From: Bacteroidetes bacterium SB0662_bin_6
GTDB taxonomy: Bacteria; Bacteroidota; Rhodothermia; Rhodothermales; VXPQ01
Reading direction: 5' to 3'
NCBI GenBank assembly: GCA_009839485.1
Contig: VXPQ01000038.1
Coordinates: forward strand, 9,153 to 73,152
Length of the DNA stretch: 64,000 nucleotides
The notes beneath the pieces were generated by a model, which was not told where the DNA came from, ran no database searches, and saw nothing but the letters and a program-made list of their open reading frames with translations. Shown piece after piece: positions 46,801 to 64,000 of the stretch. The position numbers were made by a program, and so were the translations under genes. Numbering within the stretch: position 1 is the stretch's first letter; each line of letters starts with the position of its first letter.

Positions 46801-46877
46801 GGATACTCTGATTAGGCCCCGCAGAGTGCTGCTGCATAGTGGTAACAGGCCCTGAGTCCGCGAAGTGAGAGCACCCT
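46801..46877 (+). repeat. Composite intergenic repeat (GGATACTCTGAT terminus plus TGCTGCATAGTGGTAACAGGCCC module)
   Basis: It fills the gap between two convergent genes. The terminus matches 9211, 12931 and 12996. The internal module matches 14082-14105 (reverse complement) and, more loosely, 53147-53166, 52507-52520 and 50431-50446. Confidence 0.75.
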
Positions 46878-57455: not shown

Positions 57456-58298
57456 TCAGCCGCTACGGTCCGGGTCGTCGCGATTCGACGCCTGAACCAT
57501 TTCCCCGAAATCGTAATACTCCGCACTGCTCCGGAAACGCTGCGCAGGACGCAACAGGAGTTTGATGCGCGTCTCGAAACGGGTATGGTCCGGCGCCCAC
57601 GTGCCGGAAGGGAGACGAACCGTGCTCAGAAAAAAGGCGCTTTCCTCCCGGAACCACAACGCAGTATGCACACGCTCGATGTATATGCCGACGAGACGAT
57701 CCGATGTCCGGTCCAGATACAGGCGTACGCGCCGGATGGACCGGGACACTTCGAAACCCGGACGGGCAGTAATCCTGATGACCCGCACAGGGCGGTCGGA
57801 CAACATGGAATCGGGGGCGAATTCGTACCGCCAGGCTTCCCGGTTCCGGGCTACGGCATACGGCGGATCTTCCGGAATGATATACTCTGCCAGATCGGAT
57901 GCGGCGAAGCCGGCTTCCTCCAGGTCATCGTCCGCTGAAACGAAACGGCGCAGATAGCCGAAATCGAACGTTCCGGAAGACTCCGAGTAGATCGTGCGCG
58001 GCCCTTCCGCATCGTGCCGTACTTCCTGTTCACGGGAAGCGAGAAGCGCACCGCCCTCGTCAAATTGCCCGGTGCGGGTTCGTTGCGTGTACGCACGGGT
58101 CGAAACGCTCTGAAAGGCAGAGCGCAGCGCCGTCTCGTCGATGCGCTCCAACAAGGCGCCGATGGAATCGGCAGCGGCCGATTCCTCCGGCGTCAGGGGC
58201 AGCGTCGGGTTCCGGTCCGCGCATCCCGACGCAAGGAATACCAGACACACGCTCCATGCAAGGACCGATCCATGCGAAACCCGTCGGAGGGGTCGCAT
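57456..58298 (-). CDS. Hypothetical lipoprotein
   Basis: The 671-aa ORF in the track was trimmed to the ATG at 58298 (MRPLRRVSHGSVLAWSVCLVFLASGC, a lipobox). The upstream part overlaps fabI in antisense. Confidence 0.55.
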   Translation of the reverse strand: MRPLRRVSHGSVLAWSVCLVFLASGCADRNPTLPLTPEESAAADSIGALLERIDETALRSAFQSVSTRAYTQRTRTGQFDEGGALLASREQEVRHDAEGPRTIYSESSGTFDFGYLRRFVSADDDLEEAGFAASDLAEYIIPEDPPYAVARNREAWRYEFAPDSMLSDRPVRVIRITARPGFEVSRSIRRVRLYLDRTSDRLVGIYIERVHTALWFREESAFFLSTVRLPSGTWAPDHTRFETRIKLLLRPAQRFRSSAEYYDFGEMVQASNRDDPDRSG

Positions 58299-58499
58299 TT
58301 TCCGGACAAAGAGCAAAGAGCGGGACATCAAATGCGGCATGACACAGCGGCAAAAACCGATCAGAACGGATACAGTAGCGAATAAAACCCCGGATTTCTT
58401 ACATTTCAGGCGCGCATCCCGGATACGCTGCATGCGCCGCGCATTCCGGAAGCGATCAAAAAACGCCTCGGTAATATAGTACGCATAATCCACAGGAAG

Positions 58500-59330
58500 A
58501 TGACCGGAAACGGGTTGTTGCAAGGAAAAAGGGGGCTTGTCTTCGGCGCCCTGAACGATCAGAGCATCGGATGGGCTATTGCGGAAGCCGCGCACCGGGA
58601 AGGAGCGTCTCTCGTGCTTTCGAATGCGCCGGTGGCCCGACGCCTCGGTACGCTGAACAGTCTGGCCGAAGAAACCGGGGGGCAGGTTATATGGGCAGAC
58701 GCCACCAGTGACGACGACCTGACTGCACTGTATGCACAGGTCAAGGAAGACGGCCCGCTTGATTTTATCGTGCATTCCATCGGGATGGGCGTCAATCTGC
58801 GGAAGAACGTGCCGTATCCGGAACTCAACTACGCGTGGTATCAGAAAACGCTGGACATTTCCGCTATCAGCCTGCACCGGATCGTGCATCATGCGCTCGA
58901 AGCCGGCGTCCTCACGGACGGCGCTTCCATCGTCGCGCTCACGTACATCGGCGCCCAGCGCGTGTTCTCGAAATATTCGGAGATGGGCGACGCGAAGGCC
59001 CTGCTGGAAAGCATTACGCGTTCGTTCGGCTACCGGCTGGGCAAGCGGGGGATTCGCATCAACACGGTTTCGCAGAGCCCAACCCGCACGGTGGCGGGAT
59101 CGGGGATTGACGGATTTGATGCGATGTTCGAATTCGCGGAGCGTATTTCCCCCCTCGGCAACGCGGATGCGGCGAGTTGCGCGGATTATACCGTCACGCT
59201 CCTGAGCGACTATACCCGCATGGTGACCATGCAGACGCTGTACCATGACGGGGGCTTCAGCGCCATGGGTATTTCGGACGAGGTCGTCGAGGGGCTCGCA
59301 AAAGCATTTCCGCCAGGACAGGAAGAATGA
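58500..59330 (+). CDS. fabI: Enoyl-[acyl-carrier-protein] reductase FabI
   Basis: GKRGLVFGALNDQSIGWAIAEA (FabI-type dinucleotide fold) and the Y...K catalytic context (FSKYSEMGDAKALLES). About 276 aa. Confidence 0.8.
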   Translation: MTGNGLLQGKRGLVFGALNDQSIGWAIAEAAHREGASLVLSNAPVARRLGTLNSLAEETGGQVIWADATSDDDLTALYAQVKEDGPLDFIVHSIGMGVNLRKNVPYPELNYAWYQKTLDISAISLHRIVHHALEAGVLTDGASIVALTYIGAQRVFSKYSEMGDAKALLESITRSFGYRLGKRGIRINTVSQSPTRTVAGSGIDGFDAMFEFAERISPLGNADAASCADYTVTLLSDYTRMVTMQTLYHDGGFSAMGISDEVVEGLAKAFPPGQEE

Positions 59331-60076
59331 GAGCTGCGTTCTTTCCGATCTTTTTTGCACTGGTTTTTGGAATATCCGGGGCCGCTCCTCCGGACCGGGA
59401 CGCTTCGCCTCCACTCTACTACTCCATCGAACGGGACGGCACGCTGTATGCACGTCCCGACCGGACCGCACCGCTGCCCGATTTTCGTCCGCTCGCCCTG
59501 CAGGAACCGCTCTTTATGCTGGATGCGCAGGACGGATGGCTGCATGTCCGAACGATGGATGACGTGACCGGCTTCGTACCCGAGGAAGCCGTATCGAACG
59601 TGTGGCTCCGCATTTCAAAGAAGCAGCAAACGCTTTTTGTGTACCGGGGGGCGGATCTGGCAATGCGGATTTCGGTCGATCTGGGTCTCAATGCCATCAT
59701 GGACAAGGTGCGGAGAGGCGGCACGCTGGAACCCGATCACTGGCGTACGCCCGAGGGAAACTTCCATATCGTGGCGAAAAACCCGAACAGCAAATTCTAC
59801 AAAGCGCTGGTGCTGAACTATCCCTCGGCGGAAGACGCCGAACGGGGAATCAGATCGGGCCTGATTACCGAAGAGGAATATGACGCGATCATGGAGGCGG
59901 ACGAAACGCTCGAAATGCCCCCGATGGGCACCCTGCTGGGCGGGTTCATCGAAATTCACGGCAACGGTACAGGGGGCAGTGTAAACTGGACGCAGGGGTG
60001 TATCGCCGTAACCGACTGGTGGATCGACCGGTTATGGGAGATAGTGCATGTGGGTACGCCGGTGCTGGTGGAGTAG
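59327..60076 (+). CDS. L,D-transpeptidase (YkuD) family protein with N-terminal SH3-like region
   Basis: Catalytic motif IEIHGNGTGGSVNWTQGCIAVT (His...Cys). The ATG overlaps the fabI stop. Confidence 0.75.
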   Translation: MRAAFFPIFFALVFGISGAAPPDRDASPPLYYSIERDGTLYARPDRTAPLPDFRPLALQEPLFMLDAQDGWLHVRTMDDVTGFVPEEAVSNVWLRISKKQQTLFVYRGADLAMRISVDLGLNAIMDKVRRGGTLEPDHWRTPEGNFHIVAKNPNSKFYKALVLNYPSAEDAERGIRSGLITEEEYDAIMEADETLEMPPMGTLLGGFIEIHGNGTGGSVNWTQGCIAVTDWWIDRLWEIVHVGTPVLVE

Positions 60077-60437
60077 GGAGTTATACCAAATCCGCCCCTA
60101 CACGCGTTACCAGTTCAGCGTTGGATGAATACACCTCCTCATCCAAAAAAACAAGGTCAACAAACCAGGGTAGAGCCATGAAAAAGATCGCCATCCTGCA
60201 CCTGCTGGTTAATCTGGCAATCCTTGGGATACTCGTTCACGTGTTCTATTTGAATTGGTAGTTTTGGGGGAACGGACATACCGCGGCAAGAAACCTGCCT
60301 GAGGGCGTTCCGTAGAACGGGTTAAGGGGGTTTCTGTCCCAGCCGCAAACGGGCAACCCCGGTTTGGACGGGTGCGTACGATGCGTCGGGACAGTAGCCT
60401 TGCGCGGCCATACGGCGGCGCTGTTCTTTGCACATAT

Positions 60438-60802
60438 GGGGATGACATGGTTTCGACGGGTGGTATTCGCGCTGCAAGTTGCGTGTCGAGCTCCTCAGTC
60501 CAGCTCGTTAATATGACTGGGAACTGGTAAATGCGAACGATTACTCGTACGCGATGGCGGCGTAAGCCCCATCTGTCCAATGCATTGCTCGTTCATCGGC
60601 ATGCATTAGGGCACCGACTCAGATGAACCCGCTGCGGTCCGTACCGGCTGAACAGGCCGCAGTCAAAACAATCAGCCTTTGCTTGCATCCGGCTCTTGTC
60701 GGGCGGCTCTTGATGCAGGTGAGCACGAAAGACCGACTACACACGTAGACGCTTGTCGGTACGGCCATTCGGACGCGGGTTCGACTCCCGCCATCTCCAC
60801 CA
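60438..60802 (+). ncRNA. ssrA: tmRNA (SsrA), one-piece, tag ANDYSYAMAA
   Basis: The 5' end ggggatgacatggtttcgacggg pairs with the 3' end catctcc-a-cca (one G-U). T-arm ggacgcgggttcgactcccgcc. The tag ORF is gcg aac gat tac tcg tac gcg atg gcg gcg taa (60533-60565). Confidence 0.9.
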
Positions 60803-60822
60803 CAGTATGTCAGGAAGTATGG

Positions 60823-60865
60823 AAGCGGGTCCCGAGGATTTCTCCCGCTCGCTTCTGCGGTTTTT
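60823..60865 (+). terminator. Probable terminator of ssrA
   Basis: The agcggg...cccgct stem and ccgc...gcgg stem are followed by ttttt (60861-60865). Confidence 0.5.
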
Positions 60866-60982
60866 CGAACGGACAAGGTTATATTGCGGCTGCGTGCGTA
60901 TCTTGTACCTGTCGCTGGGAAACACCACCCTCATTCTTTTTCCTTGCTTCGCTCATGGAAGCAGCTTGAAATCGAAGAGAAA

Positions 60983-61210
60983 TTGACTGTGGACACGCAC
61001 GCTATACATAACCGTCTCACTCAAGCTGGTTTCGCTCCAGGTCAGGCGGACGAGATCGTATATGCAGTGCAGGAATCCCGTAAGGGGATGGCGACAAAAG
61101 ACAAAATAGAAGCGATCGTCGAGCGGCAAACTCGCATAATAATTCTGGCGACAGTGGGTATTGTGGCAGCAATGAACGCTGTTCTGTTCGTCGCACTGCG
61201 GTTTTCGTAG
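60983..61210 (+). CDS. DUF1640-like tail-anchored small protein, paralogue A
   Basis: The likely TTG (60983) or GTG (60989) start gives (L)TVDTHAIHNRLTQAGFAPGQADEIVYAV...IIILATVGIVAAMNAVLFVALRFS. This shares the N-terminal DTHxxxxxLxxxGFxxxQAxxIV motif and a C-terminal TM with 61243-61461 and 22928-23335. Confidence 0.55.
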   Translation: MTVDTHAIHNRLTQAGFAPGQADEIVYAVQESRKGMATKDKIEAIVERQTRIIILATVGIVAAMNAVLFVALRFS

Positions 61211-61242
61211 GATACGCCCATATCGAATGGCGGAAATCGGTC

Positions 61243-61461
61243 ATGGATACGCACCGCATCTTCAACACCTTGACGGCCTCCGGATTCAGCGAAACGCAAG
61301 CGAACGCTATTGTGGAGTCGTACACGGTATCGCAAGATGACCTCGTAACGAAGGATTTTCTGCGAGCCGAGATAACCGGTTCGGAAAACCGGTTGCTGCG
61401 TTGGGTGGTGGGAAGTGCGGTCGTGATCACGGCCGCCATTATCGCCGGATACTTCGTGTAA
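61243..61461 (+). CDS. DUF1640-like tail-anchored small protein, paralogue B
   Basis: MDTHRIFNTLTASGFSETQANAIVESY...LVTKDFLRAEITGSENRLLRWVVGSAVVITAAIIAGYFV. Compare FVRAEIG...LLRWIMGLGFGAIAGV in 22928-23335. Confidence 0.6.
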   Translation: MDTHRIFNTLTASGFSETQANAIVESYTVSQDDLVTKDFLRAEITGSENRLLRWVVGSAVVITAAIIAGYFV

Positions 61462-61464
61462 CGG

Positions 61465-61533
61465 CTACCTCACGTCTCCTGTAGAATACTCCCTATCCAC
61501 AAGGCGCCGGATGCCGCGTTCGTTCCGGTCGCG
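61465..61533 (-). pseudogene. Orphan 3'-terminal fragment of an aldehyde dehydrogenase gene
   Basis: The minus strand reads RDRNERGIRRLVDREYSTGDVR*. The intact gene end at 62858-62926 reads RDRNERGIRRLVDGEYSTGDVE*. By hand alignment 58 of 69 nt are identical, and there is no upstream coding continuation. Confidence 0.75.
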
Positions 61534-61589
61534 TCCGTTTACCCGATGACATAATCAACGCTTTGATAATCCACCAGCGAAGGCAACGA

Positions 61590-62192
61590 ATGGCAGACGA
61601 TAGAATTACCGAACTCGAACGACAGATCGGCGAGTTGATCGCGGAACTGAACACCCTGCGAAAGGCCAGCCTGGGGGCGCCCGTCCGCAATTACACCTTT
61701 GCGACGCTGACCGGTGACACCACGCTGCTCGACCTGTTCGGCGAAAAGGACAAGCTGCTTGCGATCCACAACATGGGACAGGGCTGCCGCTATTGTACGC
61801 TGTGGGCGGACGGCTTCAACGGATTACTTGCCCATCTGGAGTCGGCCTTGTCTGTAGTACTCCTCTCGAAGGACCCGCCGGAAACCCAGCGCCGATTCGC
61901 CAATGCCCGCGGTTGGCGGTTTCGACTGGCCTCGCACGGCGGCGGGGACTACATTCGCGAGCAATCCGTCGTAAACGGCCAGAGCAATTATCCTGGCGCT
62001 GTGATCTACGAACGCAACGGCGACGCCATACTGCGCAAGAACGCGTGCGTGTTCGGGCCCGGAGACATCTATTGCGCAATGTGGAGTCTGCTCGGCCTCG
62101 CCGGACTGGGCGAAAAGGAATGGACGCCCCAATACGCTTATTGGAGCCGCCCGGGTAAGCTGGACGACGGCGGCTTGAACGTGCTCGAATAG
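61590..62192 (+). CDS. DUF899-like thioredoxin-fold protein
   Basis: An N-terminal coiled helix is followed by LLDLFGEKDKLLAIHNMGQGCRYCTLWADGFNGLLAHL, similar to the DUF899 CxxC region. Start at ATG 61590. Confidence 0.55.
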   Translation: MADDRITELERQIGELIAELNTLRKASLGAPVRNYTFATLTGDTTLLDLFGEKDKLLAIHNMGQGCRYCTLWADGFNGLLAHLESALSVVLLSKDPPETQRRFANARGWRFRLASHGGGDYIREQSVVNGQSNYPGAVIYERNGDAILRKNACVFGPGDIYCAMWSLLGLAGLGEKEWTPQYAYWSRPGKLDDGGLNVLE

Positions 62193-62321
62193 TGCTATTG
62201 CACCCGGCGTGGTTGCGGCCGGATAAACCGGAGTTCGTGGATTTGCGATCAAGGCAGAGACAGATTACATTCCATCCGGTTTCAAGCCCACTCGATCCCA
62301 GGAACACCCACATACCACACA

Positions 62322-62741
62322 ATGAACTTCACCATTTATTTAGTCTTCGACAAAAACTGCCGGGAAGCATTCGAATTATACCGCACGGTATTCGGCGGCG
62401 AGTTCACGGAATTTCTCACCTATGGCGAGGGACCGCCGGAAATGAATGTGCTGGAAGGCGATCGCGACCTCGTCATGCATATGTCGCTGCCTATAGGATC
62501 CAACGTCCTGATGGGCTGCGACATCGACTCGCAGACGCCTCCGCTCATCCCCGGCAACAACTTCGCCGTTTCCGTCAGCCCTGACAGCAGGGAAGAAGCC
62601 GACCGGCTATTTTCCGAACTGTCCGAAGGAGGCGCCGCGGTGATGCCCATGGCAGACATGTTCTGGGGTGGCTACTTCGGTATGTGCGTCGACAAGTTCG
62701 GCATCTCGTGGCAGATAAACTTTGGACCTCCGGCGGATTGA
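62322..62741 (+). CDS. VOC family protein (PhnB/glyoxalase-like)
   Basis: 139 aa, with MNFTIYLVFDKNCREAFELY...VMHMSLPIGSNVLMGCD...FWGGYFGMCVDKFGISWQINF typical of PhnB-like VOC proteins. Confidence 0.7.
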   Translation: MNFTIYLVFDKNCREAFELYRTVFGGEFTEFLTYGEGPPEMNVLEGDRDLVMHMSLPIGSNVLMGCDIDSQTPPLIPGNNFAVSVSPDSREEADRLFSELSEGGAAVMPMADMFWGGYFGMCVDKFGISWQINFGPPAD

Positions 62742-62857
62742 GGCCGGTCAGGATACCCGTGCAAGGCCACAAAGGGGCTTGCGTGACAAGAAAAAGCCCC
62801 TTCGCGTACGGATTTTGCGTATGAGGCAGCCGGAATAGTCCTCACTGCCTTGACGCC

Positions 62858-64000
62858 TCACTCCACATCCCCTGTCGAATACTCCCCATCCACAAGGCGC
62901 CGGATGCCGCGCTCATTGCGGTCGCGCAGTTCCGGGGGCAATGCGGACGAGGGAAAATTCTGCCAGGCTACGGGCCGCACGAACCGTTGAATCGCGGTGT
63001 CTCCCACGGCTCCGGTACGCACATCGGTCGTGGCCGGATAGGGGCCTCCATGATGCATGGCAGGGCATACCTCCACGCCCGTGGGAAATCCGTTGAATAT
63101 GAACCGGCCCGCCTTTCGCCGCAACACATGAACGAGCCTGTCATAGCGGGCAATATCTTCTTCATCGCCGTGAATCGCCGCGGTGAGCTGCCCTTTCAGA
63201 CTGTGGGCAACGCTTTCCAACTCAGCGGTATCCCTCGCCACCACGACCAGGCTCGACGGCCCGAACACCTCTTCGGACAGCATATCGTTCGCCAGGAAGG
63301 TCTGCACATCTGTGCGAAAGAGGGCTCCTCCCCCCTCCGTACGCGCCGGGTCCGCCTCTCGCTCCGAAGCCGCCACGCGCTCGACCCCTTGCGCAGCAGC
63401 CAAGCGGTCGGTGCCGGCGCAGAACCGGTCGCGGATGCCCCGGTGGAGCATCGACGCCGGTTCGGCCCGGCGGATGTGTTCGCCCAAAGCCTGCAGGAAG
63501 GCTTCCATCGCTTCCCCGCCGACCCCGAACACCAGCCCCGGGTTCGTACAGAACTGCCCCACGCCCAGCAGAATCGACCCCGCCAGTTTTTCGGCAAGGG
63601 CCTCCGCCCCGTTCTCCAGGGCGGAAGGCAGGATGAACACCGGATTGACGCTCCCCATCTCGGCATACACAGGTATTGGCACGGGGCGCGCGGCCGCCGC
63701 ATCGAAGAGCGCACGTCCTCCCTGAAGCGATCCGGTGAATCCCACTGCCTGCACCAGCGGGTGCCGGACCAGCGCCAGCCCTACCTCGTAGCCTTGTCCA
63801 TGCACCAGCGAGAACACGCCGGCAGGCATTTTTTCGGCTTCGGCGGCCCGGAGAATAGCGTGGGCCACCAGTTCGGAGGTGCCGGGATGCGCCGGATGCG
63901 CCTTGCAGATTACCGGGCAACCGGCGGCCAGCGCAGAGGCGGTATCGCCCCCCGGCGCCGAATAGGCCAGCGGAAAGTTGCTGGCCCCGAATACGGCCAC
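62858..64000 (-). CDS. NAD(P)+ aldehyde dehydrogenase, alpha-ketoglutaric-semialdehyde-dehydrogenase-like; N-terminus beyond the window
   Basis: FGASNFPLAYSAPGGDTASALAAGCPVICKAHPAHPGTSELV and EMGSVNPVFI with GQFCTNPG (catalytic Cys). The ORF is open to the window edge. Confidence 0.85.
   Translation of the reverse strand: MAVFGASNFPLAYSAPGGDTASALAAGCPVICKAHPAHPGTSELVAHAILRAAEAEKMPAGVFSLVHGQGYEVGLALVRHPLVQAVGFTGSLQGGRALFDAAAARPVPIPVYAEMGSVNPVFILPSALENGAEALAEKLAGSILLGVGQFCTNPGLVFGVGGEAMEAFLQALGEHIRRAEPASMLHRGIRDRFCAGTDRLAAAQGVERVAASEREADPARTEGGGALFRTDVQTFLANDMLSEEVFGPSSLVVVARDTAELESVAHSLKGQLTAAIHGDEEDIARYDRLVHVLRRKAGRFIFNGFPTGVEVCPAMHHGGPYPATTDVRTGAVGDTAIQRFVRPVAWQNFPSSALPPELRDRNERGIRRLVDGEYSTGDVE

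What the first reader, a model, noticed from the sequence alone, without database searches (positions are those of the whole stretch)
61465..62926. Two-gene cassette flanked by diverged direct copies of an aldehyde dehydrogenase 3' end, with almost only synonymous differences
The last 22 codons plus stop of the aldehyde dehydrogenase gene (62858-62926, minus strand) recur at 61465-61533 in the same orientation. No upstream coding sequence accompanies the second copy.

By hand alignment 58 of 69 nt match. Nine of the 11 differences are third-position synonymous changes (for example cgg/cgc, aac/aat, gaa/gag, tct/tcg, gga/ggg, gac/gat). Only two amino acids and the stop codon differ.

That pattern is what two independently functional homologues look like. 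It is not what a duplicated fragment decaying neutrally looks like.

Between the copies lie a DUF899-like gene and a VOC/PhnB-like gene, a plausible small detoxification cassette, about 660 bp downstream of ssrA.

The simplest reading is replacement or insertion by recombination with DNA from a diverged relative, or integration of an element carrying its own copy of the gene end. Either would leave the resident 3' end stranded. No integrase is present.
Basis: partly seen in the sequence, partly recalled or inferred. Interest (0 to 1): 0.6.

Follow-up and report, generated by a model that had tools for sequence, protein, structure and literature searches.

The report
Stranded relic of an aldehyde dehydrogenase end
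The second copy of the aldehyde dehydrogenase gene end is a real but dead 69-base leftover of one old recombination accident, shared and slowly eroding in a whole group of related sponge-associated bacteria; it is an ordinary scar in a busy rearrangement hotspot next to the tmRNA gene.

Summary
The repeat is real: 61465-61533 and 62858-62926 match at 58 of 69 nt, with a 24-nt identical core. The synonymous count was overstated (6 third-position synonymous differences, not 9).

It is not a recent event in this genome. Related metagenome genomes (ALDH 88-92% nt) carry the same relic, joined to the DUF1640b stop codon by the identical junction. It was originally 26 codons plus stop. It is now cut back to 22 codons here, 9 codons in L092-97, 7 nt in L101 and nothing in L090.

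More distant relatives (ALDH about 80%) have ssrA-DUF1640a-DUF1640b-DUF899-ALDH with no relic. DUF899 is therefore ancestral here, not cargo. VOC was gained in the relic-bearing clade and lost repeatedly.

The reconstructed ancestral relic equals the ancestral gene end, so today's differences arose afterwards. Sister relics carry mostly non-synonymous-type changes.

One relative (L102) has a full ALDH abutting DUF1640b through that same junction, without DUF899 or VOC.

Best reading: one homologous crossover plus one illegitimate join 26 codons before the stop stranded an ALDH end. No integrase or att features were found. This is a known kind of scar, of low to moderate interest.

The parts
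60438..60802 (+). ssrA (tmRNA), one fixed border of the variable interval
   Evidence: ARAGORN finds a tmRNA with tag ANDYSYAMAA. It is 92-97% identical in all relatives.
60989..61210 (+). DUF1640a-like small membrane ORF (73 aa from GTG)
   Evidence: ORF and weak PF07798 match. Homologous 73-aa ORFs occupy the same place in L092, L093, L096-L099, L101 and L102.
61243..61461 (+). DUF1640b-like small membrane ORF (72 aa); its stop codon is the fixed neighbour of the relic
   Evidence: 94-97% identical proteins P0121-P0124 exist in relatives. The same DUF1640b-relic junction is present in L091-L097, L101 and L102.
61462..61464 (.). 3-nt junction (CGG) between the DUF1640b stop and the relic's TAG
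   Evidence: The junction sequence GTGTAACGGCTAC is identical in W and L091-L097, and in L101 (7-nt remnant). L102 has the same junction, where it ends a live ALDH.
61465..61533 (-). Non-coding relic of the ALDH 3' end (22 codons + TAG); the original was 26 codons + stop
   Evidence: Orthologous relics of different lengths are seen in relatives. There is no ORF start and no further ALDH homology.
61534..61589 (.). Remodelled spacer between the relic and the DUF899 start; the roughly 270-nt leader seen in relatives is largely missing
   Evidence: Alignment A2. Only the last 10 nt match the L085/L091 spacer significantly. No consensus promoter or terminator was found.
61590..62192 (+). DUF899/thioredoxin-like gene, ancestral at this position
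   Evidence: PF05988, E = 1e-18. It is present between DUF1640b and ALDH in L100 and L098/L099, which lack the relic. It also lies next to ALDH in L087 and L090.
62322..62741 (+). VOC/PhnB-like gene, gained in the relic-bearing clade and lost repeatedly
   Evidence: PF06983/PF00903. Present in W, L091 and L101. Absent in L085, L090, L092, L095-97 and in the more distant group. Flank remnants in L085 and L090 point to independent deletions.
62858..62926 (-). Last 22 codons + TGA of the live ALDH gene, the partner of the relic
62858..64000 (-). ALDH gene (NADP-dependent, 2,5-dioxovalerate dehydrogenase-like), running off the window; 531 aa in full
   Evidence: PF00171. The full gene is at L081:10537-12132. 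Homologues are named aldehyde dehydrogenase (NADP+) / 2,5-dioxopentanoate dehydrogenase by their sources.

Best explanation
The 69-nt copy is a dead relic of the neighbouring ALDH gene's last codons. It was created once, in the common ancestor of a clade of related sponge-metagenome bacteria (the source names them 'Bacteroidetes bacterium SB06xx').

**Ancestral state (shown).** The gene order was ssrA, DUF1640a, DUF1640b, DUF899, then ALDH pointing back towards them.

**Step 1 (inferred).** One variant of the locus lost the DUF899 interval. ALDH then ended 3 nt from the DUF1640b stop. L102 shows that arrangement today.

**Step 2 (inferred).** That variant recombined with closely related DNA that still carried leader-DUF899-VOC-ALDH end.
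- One crossover was homologous.
- The other end joined illegitimately 26 codons before the ALDH stop. This is homology-facilitated illegitimate recombination, or equivalently integration of an illegitimately closed circle by a single homologous crossover.
- The result was a complete ALDH, DUF899 and VOC, plus a stranded 26-codon ALDH end stuck to DUF1640b.
- Which partner was donor and which was recipient cannot be told.

**Since then (shown).**
- The relic has no function and decays by point changes and 5' deletions.
- VOC, DUF899 or the whole interval have been lost in different lineages.

**Role of the direct repeats (inferred).** The two repeats probably serve as substrates for unequal recombination.
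- L102 may be the deletion product.
- The L085 relic, which has regained a native TGA and flank, may be the duplication product.

No site-specific recombinase is involved.
For: **Relic shared through one junction.** W, L091-L097 and L101 all have the DUF1640b stop, then CGG, then the reverse complement of TAG and the ALDH end.

**One 5' junction in the longest copies.** L085 and L091 share ...GAGAATGAGAG|CCCGCAGAGCTGCACGACCGC, 26 codons before the stop.

**Erosion series.** About 92 nt remain in L085, 81 in L091, 69 in W, about 27 in L092-97, 7 in L101 and 0 in L090.

**DUF899 is ancestral.** L100, L098/L099 and L087 have it in place. None shows a relic in the sequence examined; for L087 only the 174 nt upstream of DUF899 could be checked, and these match the relic-free L100 spacer. 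Their divergence is ordinary: DUF899 85-87% against ALDH about 80%.

**No diverged donor is needed.** Every site where the relics differ from one another has one state equal to the inferred ancestral gene end.

**The predicted partner arrangement exists.** L102 has a full 531-aa ALDH ending in TAG, 3 nt from DUF1640b.

**The junction looks as if it formed in a live gene.** It keeps both ORFs intact and gives an in-frame stop. This fits formation in a live gene better than formation in junk (inference).

**Coincident novelty.** The relic-bearing clade also has a new leader upstream of DUF899 and VOC downstream of it. This fits import of a block.

**These lineages exchange DNA.** W is 92-94% identical to L101 over the first 1000 nt of ALDH but only 86% in the last 150 nt. 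Against L090 and L095 those last 150 nt are 94-95% identical, compared with 88-89% for the gene as a whole.

**No mobile-element features.**
- No integrase is called within about 10 kb on either side in W, nor in any of the fetched relatives' loci.
- There is no ssrA 3'-end repeat.
- The core is absent from viral contigs.
Against: - No genome retains the illegitimate partner sequence, so microhomology at the codon -26 join cannot be checked.
- On the ALDH tree L102 is sister to W (92% bootstrap) and nested among relic-bearing lineages. It also carries Tyr>Ser at a Tyr conserved in all 13 others, inside the repeat. L102 may therefore be a later pop-out rather than a survivor of the pre-insertion state, which removes part of the support for step 1.
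- Identity between the ancestral relic and the ancestral gene end is just as well explained by an in-situ duplication.
- The L085 relic, with its native TGA and about 10 nt of native flank, needs an extra event.
- The argument from the tidy junction is qualitative only.
Confidence: 0.45

Rival explanations
1. In-situ tandem duplication followed by collapse. A segment running from the DUF899 leader to ALDH codon -26..stop was duplicated in tandem. An illegitimate deletion then removed the upstream DUF899(-VOC) copy exactly up to the stop codon of the first ALDH end, leaving the relic. L102 arose later by recombination between the two repeats.
For: - The ancestral relic equals the ancestral gene end, which is exactly what a self-copy predicts.
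- The geometry fits: relic, then leader, then DUF899, then ALDH.
- L102 is nested as sister of W.
- Tandem duplications are the commonest spontaneous rearrangements (established knowledge).
Against: - Two identical copies of about 1.7 kb would normally collapse by homologous recombination long before a precise illegitimate deletion could fix the remodelled state (inference from known duplication instability).
- None of about 15 related loci shows two DUF899 copies.
- The deletion would have had to end inside the stop codon and regenerate an in-frame TAG 3 nt from the DUF1640b stop purely by chance.
- The clade-specific leader and VOC would need separate events.
Confidence: 0.22
2. Site-specific integration, one of the first reader's options. 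An integrative element carrying DUF899-VOC and its own copy of the ALDH end inserted into an att site inside the ALDH 3' end. The relic would be attR, and the integrase was later lost.
For: - Direct repeats of a gene 3' end flanking extra genes are the classical signature of such elements.
- An apparently empty site exists in L102.
- The locus lies next to ssrA, which genomic islands frequently use as an integration site (PMC11915505, PMC3146451).
Against: - No recombinase is called in this interval in W or in any relative fetched.
- DUF899 sits at the same position in lineages that never had the repeat.
- Homology covers the whole 81-92 nt rather than a short core.
- The identical core is not significantly long.
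- The core is absent from 2.9 million viral contigs, and in JGI metagenomes it occurs only in the orthologous ALDH.
- Defence islands in relatives sit at three different points of the interval, not at one att site.
Confidence: 0.07
3. The relic is retained because it does something. One possibility is a promoter or leader element for DUF899. Another follows from its orientation: it would be transcribed antisense to ALDH inside a DUF1640-DUF899-VOC transcript, so it could act as an RNA segment that pairs with the ALDH mRNA 3' end.
For: - The relic branch in W shows a mild excess of third-position changes (4:2, p about 0.04).
- Pooled relic changes are 7:6 against 26% expected to be synonymous-type (p about 0.03).
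- Divergence between the W and L091 relics is 9 of 66 nt (counted from the sequences). ALDH third-position divergence between W and the group containing L095 is 22%.
- No terminator is predicted between DUF1640b and DUF899, so read-through is plausible.
Against: - The relic is truncated to 27 nt, to 7 nt, or absent in close relatives that keep DUF899 or ALDH.
- The sister relics L085 and L091 carry mainly non-synonymous-type changes.
- No promoter, terminator or Rfam hit was found in or near it.
- The statistical signals are marginal. Gene conversion with the live copy, or GC-to-AT decay at third positions, explains them equally well.
Confidence: 0.05

Closest known systems
Homology-facilitated illegitimate recombination (HFIR). 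Described for natural transformation in Acinetobacter, Pseudomonas stutzeri and Streptococcus, and for conjugation in E. coli (PMC3240628; primary references listed in PMC5361080: PMC122324, PMC122325)
   Same: One end of the incoming DNA is anchored by homology and the other joins illegitimately. Extra genes are gained next to the anchor. Resident sequence beyond the illegitimate joint stays in place.
   Different: Here it is inferred only from comparative anatomy. Donor, recipient, uptake route and junction microhomology are all unknown. The imported segment appears to restore genes the lineage had lost rather than bring in foreign DNA.
C-terminal displacement, with 'orphaned 3' regions', in rhs, CDI and T6SS effector-immunity loci (PMC5361080; Jackson et al. 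2009, PMC2935791, as cited there)
   Same: An incoming module with its own gene 3' end is inserted, and the previous 3' end is shifted downstream as a non-expressed orphan in the same orientation.
   Different: In those systems the displaced ends are diverged toxin domains with immunity genes, and selection acts on the turnover. Here the two ends were essentially identical, the gene is a metabolic dehydrogenase, there has been a single displacement, and the orphan is simply decaying.
Integrative elements that target the 3' end of a gene (tRNA, tmRNA or protein-coding) and carry a replacement end
   Same: Direct repeats of a gene's 3' end bracket the extra genes, and an empty-looking site exists in a relative.
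   Different: There is no integrase, no short conserved core with defined edges, and no independent occurrences. The bracketed DUF899 is ancestral to the locus.
ssrA-linked genomic island and defence-island hotspots (PMC3146451, PMC11915505)
   Same: The interval downstream of ssrA is highly variable among relatives. It holds BREX, CRISPR-Cas and methyltransferase modules in some of them.
   Different: No ssrA 3'-end direct repeats or integrases were seen. The insertions lie at several different intergenic points between ssrA and ALDH.

Membership tests
Pseudogene fragment / decaying duplication relic | No intact ORF or start; homology limited to a gene piece | tested here: met
   There is a stop 10 codons upstream and no in-frame start. 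Only ALDH residues 506-530 are detectable, in any genome.
Pseudogene fragment / decaying duplication relic | Orthologous copies in relatives are variably truncated or lost | tested here: met
   The copies retain about 92, 81, 69, about 27, 7 and 0 nt respectively, and those retained next to DUF1640b share the same junction.
Pseudogene fragment / decaying duplication relic | Substitutions not restricted to synonymous-type positions | tested here: inconclusive
   Synonymous-type to non-synonymous-type counts are 2:4 for the L085 relic, 1:3 for the L091 relic and 4:2 for the W relic (p about 0.04). Pooled they are 7:6 against 26% expected.
HFIR / displaced 3' end scar | Sharp non-homologous junction inside the resident gene | tested here: met
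   L085 and L091 share the junction ...GAGAATGAGAG|CCCGCAGAG at codon -26.
HFIR / displaced 3' end scar | Inserted block is colinear with the arrangement found in relatives (a plausible donor) | tested here: met
   DUF899 lies next to the ALDH 3' end in L100, L087 and L090.
HFIR / displaced 3' end scar | A pre-event arrangement exists (gene abutting the outer flank) | tested here: inconclusive
   L102 has exactly this arrangement. However, it is sister to W on the ALDH tree (92% bootstrap) and could be a secondary pop-out.
HFIR / displaced 3' end scar | Microhomology at the illegitimate joint; donor tract detectable in the anchor gene | not testable with these tools
   No partner sequence survives. 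ALDH identity is mosaic near the 3' end, but this cannot be assigned to the event.
Integrase-mediated integrative element (att duplication of a gene 3' end) | Tyrosine or serine recombinase gene at one end | tested here: not met
   None is called in this interval in W or in any related locus (precomputed Pfam listings).
Integrase-mediated integrative element (att duplication of a gene 3' end) | Bracketed genes absent wherever the repeat is absent | tested here: not met
   L100, L098/L099 and L090 lack the repeat but keep DUF899 in place. L087 likewise, in the part of the locus that was sequenced.
Integrase-mediated integrative element (att duplication of a gene 3' end) | Short identical core with conserved repeat edges, recurring elsewhere | tested here: not met
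   The 5' edge differs between genomes. The core run is not significant (p = 0.066). The core is found only in orthologous ALDH ends.
ssrA-targeting genomic island | Direct repeat of the ssrA 3' end at the distal island border | tested here: not met
   No ssrA-derived repeat was found in 58000-64000.
Tandem duplication remnant | Second copy, or remains, of the intervening genes | tested here: not met
   Every locus has a single DUF899.

The most novel reading that the evidence does not exclude
The two ALDH-end repeats may make the DUF899(-VOC) segment an integrase-free, RecA-dependent cassette in this symbiont population.

- It would be lost by pop-out (L102-type genomes) and duplicated by unequal exchange (the hybrid relic in L085).
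- It would be regained by a single crossover of the excised or imported circle with any ALDH end.
- The relic would be periodically refreshed by gene conversion from the live gene. That would explain its intact frame and its synonymous-looking differences.

More broadly, the ssrA-ALDH interval would be a defence-island hotspot that works by homologous or illegitimate exchange rather than by site-specific integration.
Probability: 0.15. Interest if true: 0.45.

Novelty: new member of a known kind. Interest (0 to 1): 0.25.

Why it matters
The main value is as a worked example. A short 'synonymous-only' duplicate in one genome looked like evidence for a diverged functional donor. Comparison with about 15 related loci shows instead an old shared scar whose differences arose after the event.

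It also documents a small hotspot in uncultivated sponge-associated bacteria:
- DUF899, VOC, DUF1640 genes, BREX, CRISPR-Cas and methyltransferase modules come and go next to ssrA without visible integrases.
- 70-90-nt repeats probably drive both loss and duplication.

Nothing here changes what is known about mechanisms. It adds a housekeeping-gene case to the 'displaced 3' end' scars known from toxin loci.

Tried and rejected
- **Chance similarity: rejected.** The 24-mer has 0 expected matches.
- **Assembly artefact: rejected.** Four independent assemblies carry the identical sequence, and long-read relatives carry the orthologous structure.
- **Longer degraded ALDH paralogue upstream of the relic: rejected.** tblastn finds only residues 506-530 in W, L085, L091 and L092.
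- **Species-representative genome collection: no use.** The nearest ALDH was 61% identical.
- **Relic as a hitch-hiked flank of an ssrA-side island, my first alternative: set aside as a separate idea.** Relatives showed that the DUF1640 pair is ancestral in both groups. The idea survives only as the mirror-image donor/recipient version of the best explanation.
- **W's 5' edge as a deletion between ACGAC repeats: not demonstrable.** W's 56-nt spacer is not significantly similar to the L085/L091 spacer.
- **'Empty' L086 as the ancestral state: rejected.** The L086 spacer is native ssrA-downstream sequence, so L086 is a deletion. L089 likewise lacks DUF1640 and DUF899 and is probably also derived.
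- **Promoter or terminator role for the relic: no hits**.
- **Known RNA family in the conserved DUF899 leader: none**.
- **Leader 25-mer in JGI metagenomes: no hits**.
- **Core sequence in viral contigs: no hits**.
Full report
**Observation**

- The direct repeat is real. The repeat finder gives 61471-61533 / 62864-62926, 63 nt at 89% identity, and MAFFT aligns the same block with no similarity outside it.
- In the ALDH reading frame, 58 of 69 nt match.
- The 11 differences are:
  - 6 third-position synonymous changes;
  - 1 first-position change (Gly/Arg);
  - 2 in the last sense codon (GAG/AGG);
  - 2 in the stop codon (TGA/TAG).
'Two amino acids and the stop differ' is correct.
- The 24-nt core occurs twice in the window, against 0 expected.
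- The second copy has no start codon, has an in-frame stop 10 codons upstream, and shows no further ALDH similarity.
- Gene calls hold: ALDH, DUF899, a VOC/PhnB-like gene and two weak DUF1640/CCDC90-like ORFs. tmRNA is at 60438-60802.

**Source and relatives**

- The window is VXWD01000050.1 of GCA_009836085.1. Its ALDH is named by NCBI as from 'Bacteroidetes bacterium SB0662_bin_6 / SB0668_bin_1'.
- The identical locus is present in four independent assemblies, covering at least two sequencing runs.
- The species-representative genome set held nothing closer than 61%.
- The large protein collection gave close relatives through ALDH, DUF1640b and YkuD. Their contigs are L085-L101.
- One JGI metagenome contig, L102, came from a scan with the repeat core.
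- ALDH nucleotide identities define two groups:
  - the 'W-clade': W, L102, L101 and group I (L085, L090, L092, L095-97), mutually 88-95% identical;
  - 'group II': L100, L087, L086, L088 and L089, about 80% identical to W.
- L091 and L098/L099 have no ALDH in the fetched locus. Their other genes place L091 with group I and L098/L099 with group II.

**Arrangements found**

All are written from ssrA towards ALDH. '<ALDH' means ALDH on the opposite strand, pointing back.

| Locus | Group | Arrangement |
|---|---|---|
| L100 | II | ssrA, DUF1640a, DUF1640b, 339-nt spacer with a TTGACA-17-TATACT promoter, DUF899, <ALDH; no relic |
| L098/L099 with L088 (two contigs from related samples; continuity inferred) | II | ssrA, DUF1640a, DUF1640b', DUF899, BREX, <ALDH; no relic |
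| L087 | II | BREX, 174 nt of the L100-type spacer, DUF899, <ALDH |
| L086 | II | ssrA directly followed by <ALDH; a deletion, since its 61-nt spacer is native ssrA-downstream sequence; CRISPR-Cas I-C on the other side of ssrA |
| L089 | II | ssrA, 288 nt, <ALDH |
| W | W-clade | ssrA, DUF1640a, DUF1640b, relic (69 nt), 56 nt, DUF899, VOC, <ALDH |
| L091 | W-clade | BREX, DUF1640b, relic (81 nt), about 270-nt leader, DUF899, VOC, then unrelated genes |
| L092-94, L095-97 | W-clade | ssrA, DUF1640a, DUF1640b, relic (last about 27 nt only), about 150-nt leader, DUF899, <ALDH |
| L085 | W-clade | <ALDH, DUF899, about 270-nt leader, relic (about 92 nt) with native TGA and about 10 nt of native flank, then an inverted ssrA unit and a methyltransferase/SMC island |
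| L090 | W-clade | ssrA, 85 nt, DUF899, <ALDH; no relic |
| L101 | W-clade | ssrA, DUF1640a, DUF1640b, 7 nt of the junction, VOC, <ALDH |
| L102 | W-clade | ssrA, DUF1640a, truncated DUF1640b, 3 nt, full <ALDH ending in TAG |

**What the comparison shows directly**

1. DUF899 lies between DUF1640b and ALDH in group II genomes that have no relic (L100 and, on separate contigs, L098/L099 with L088). Its divergence is ordinary. It is therefore ancestral to the locus, not cargo delivered between the repeats.
2. VOC occurs in three W-clade sublineages (W, L101, L091) and nowhere in group II. L085 and L090 each keep a different flank of it. It was gained at the base of the W-clade and deleted several times.
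3. All relics next to DUF1640b share one junction...GTGTAA CGG CTA C....
4. L085 and L091 also share one 5' junction, 26 codons before the stop. There was therefore a single founding event, older than the roughly 10% ALDH divergence inside the W-clade.
5. The 61533 edge in W, the roughly 27-nt stubs (a deletion between CCCCA repeats) and the 7-nt stub in L101 are later erosion.
6. W's 56-nt spacer is not demonstrably homologous to the leader of the others, apart from the ribosome-binding region.

**Substitution pattern**

- I compared six W-clade gene ends and the three long relics.
- At every site where the relics differ from one another, one state equals the inferred ancestral gene end.
- The relic at birth was therefore indistinguishable from the resident gene end over the 66 nt compared.
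- W's 9 coding differences split as follows:
  - 6 on the relic branch (4 third-position, 2 first-position);
  - 3 on the live-gene branch (2 synonymous, 1 not).
- The raw comparison looks selective (6:3, Fisher p = 0.007).
- The relic branch alone is marginal (p about 0.04). The L085 and L091 relics show 2:4 and 1:3.
- The 24-nt identical run is not unusual for 11 differences in 69 nt (p = 0.066).
- There are hints of gene conversion or retained old alleles:
  - The W relic shares CGG (codon 3) with the live ends of L101 and L102.
  - It shares GAC (codon 20) with L101.
  - ALDH identity is mosaic near the 3' end.
- These hints are not strong enough to build on.

**L102**

- A full ALDH abuts DUF1640b through the very junction that carries the relic elsewhere.
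- It could be a survivor of the pre-event state. Or it could be the product of homologous recombination between the relic and the live end (a pop-out).
- The second reading is somewhat favoured. L102 is sister to W on the ALDH tree (92% bootstrap).
- Its ALDH also carries Tyr>Ser at a Tyr invariant in the 13 other sequences, inside the repeat. That is what one would expect if this end had spent time as junk.

**Mechanism**

- Any model needs one illegitimate join at codon -26.
- Site-specific integration is disfavoured:
  - no recombinase in any locus;
  - no ssrA repeat;
  - variable repeat edges;
  - ancestral 'cargo';
  - no occurrence of the core outside orthologous ALDH ends.
- Two models remain.
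  - (i) Recombination between a variant in which ALDH abutted DUF1640b and closely related DNA carrying leader-DUF899-VOC-ALDH end, through one homologous crossover and one illegitimate join (HFIR type).
  - (ii) A tandem duplication remodelled by a second, precise deletion.
- I prefer (i) for these reasons:
  - The junction preserves both converging ORFs with an in-frame stop 3 nt from the DUF1640b stop. That is natural if it formed while the ALDH end was live.
  - The clade-specific leader and VOC appear together with the relic.
  - An intermediate with two 1.7-kb identical repeats should collapse before it is remodelled.
  - The lineages visibly exchange DNA.
- None of these points is decisive. 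I give (i) 0.45, (ii) 0.22, integration 0.07 and a functional element 0.05. The remainder is unassigned.
- The hybrid L085 relic is relic-like to codon 21, then has a native TGA and flank. It fits the duplication product of unequal exchange between the two repeats, and L102 fits the reciprocal deletion product. Both are inferences.

**Comparison with known systems**

- The closest described mechanism is homology-facilitated illegitimate recombination (PMC3240628).
- The closest described outcome is 'C-terminal displacement' with orphaned 3' regions in rhs, CDI and T6SS loci (PMC5361080 and references there).
- This case differs from those in four ways:
  - the displaced and incoming ends were essentially identical;
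  - the gene is metabolic;
  - there has been only one displacement;
  - the orphan is decaying.
- The neighbourhood behaves like an ssrA-linked variable region (PMC3146451, PMC11915505), but without the usual integrase and att signatures.

**Verdict**

- It is partly wrong: this is not a cassette insertion, not recent, not evidence for a diverged functional donor, and not att-like.
- It is a new example of a known kind of scar. Interest is low to moderate (0.25).

Noticed in passing
L087:10567-17593; L088:11684-16816 with L098:12766-20762; L091:1-9812: BREX systems sit at three different points of the same ssrA-ALDH interval in three lineages. In L087 it is just upstream of DUF899. In L098/L088 it is between DUF899 and ALDH. 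In L091 it is upstream of DUF1640b. All have the same orientation and no integrase is in view.
   Followed up: partly
L086:10200-17593: A CRISPR array of about 11 repeats and a type I-C cas operon (Cas2, Cas1, Cas4, Cas7, Csd1, Cas5d, Cas3) abut the promoter side of ssrA, in a genome where ALDH directly abuts the ssrA 3' end.
   Followed up: no
L085:11367-14299 versus L096 (between sulfatase and ALDH, L096:12991-15987); also L092 and L101: A two-gene module (a 263/288-aa ORF plus a 733-aa N6_N4 DNA methyltransferase) occupies two different sites. It lies upstream of ALDH in L092, L096 and L101, and downstream of ssrA in L085. The two versions are 81% identical at the nucleotide level.
   Followed up: partly
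L085:10696-11200: The ssrA unit (about 130 nt of upstream sequence plus the tmRNA gene) is inverted relative to every other genome examined. It is joined directly to the ALDH relic.
   Followed up: partly
L091:10420-10577 and the equivalent in L085, L092 and L095-97 (lost in the window, 61534-61589): A leader of about 150 nt upstream of DUF899 is 95-96% identical across genomes whose coding genes are 92-93% identical. It contains a GGGTGT...ACACCC hairpin and has no Rfam match. The window genome has lost it, so DUF899 here may depend on read-through from the DUF1640 genes.
   Followed up: partly
window 62858-63007, compared with L101, L090 and L095: ALDH identity is mosaic. W is 92-94% identical to L101 over the first 1000 nt but 86% in the last 150 nt. 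Against L090 and L095 it is 94-95% identical in the last 150 nt, compared with 88-89% overall. This suggests homologous exchange of the gene end between lineages.
   Followed up: partly
L102:4742-4744 (ALDH codon -8): Tyr>Ser (TAT>TCT) at a tyrosine that is invariant in the 13 other ALDH sequences. It lies inside the stretch homologous to the relic.
   Followed up: no
L102:4808-4957: DUF1640b is 5'-truncated to 49 aa in L102. The same 49-aa protein (P0125) is recorded on 9 contigs, including one of 2.8 Mb. The L102-type arrangement may therefore be a widespread lineage rather than a rare variant.
   Followed up: no
L095:6861-9037; L096:6975-9038; L097:5225-7288: A 614-687-aa Ig/LRR protein gene with a Por secretion tail is inserted between YkuD and ssrA in these genomes only.
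   Followed up: no
window 46813-46862 versus L081:13837-13886 (about 2.2 kb beyond the window end): A 50-nt stretch, 86% identical and in inverted orientation, links a site 15 kb upstream in the window with the region beside a PIN/FitA-like toxin-antitoxin pair just past the window end.
   Followed up: no
L100:12143-12200: The DUF1640b-DUF899 spacer of group II contains a remnant similar to part of DUF1640a. This suggests there was once a third copy of the small-ORF family.
   Followed up: no
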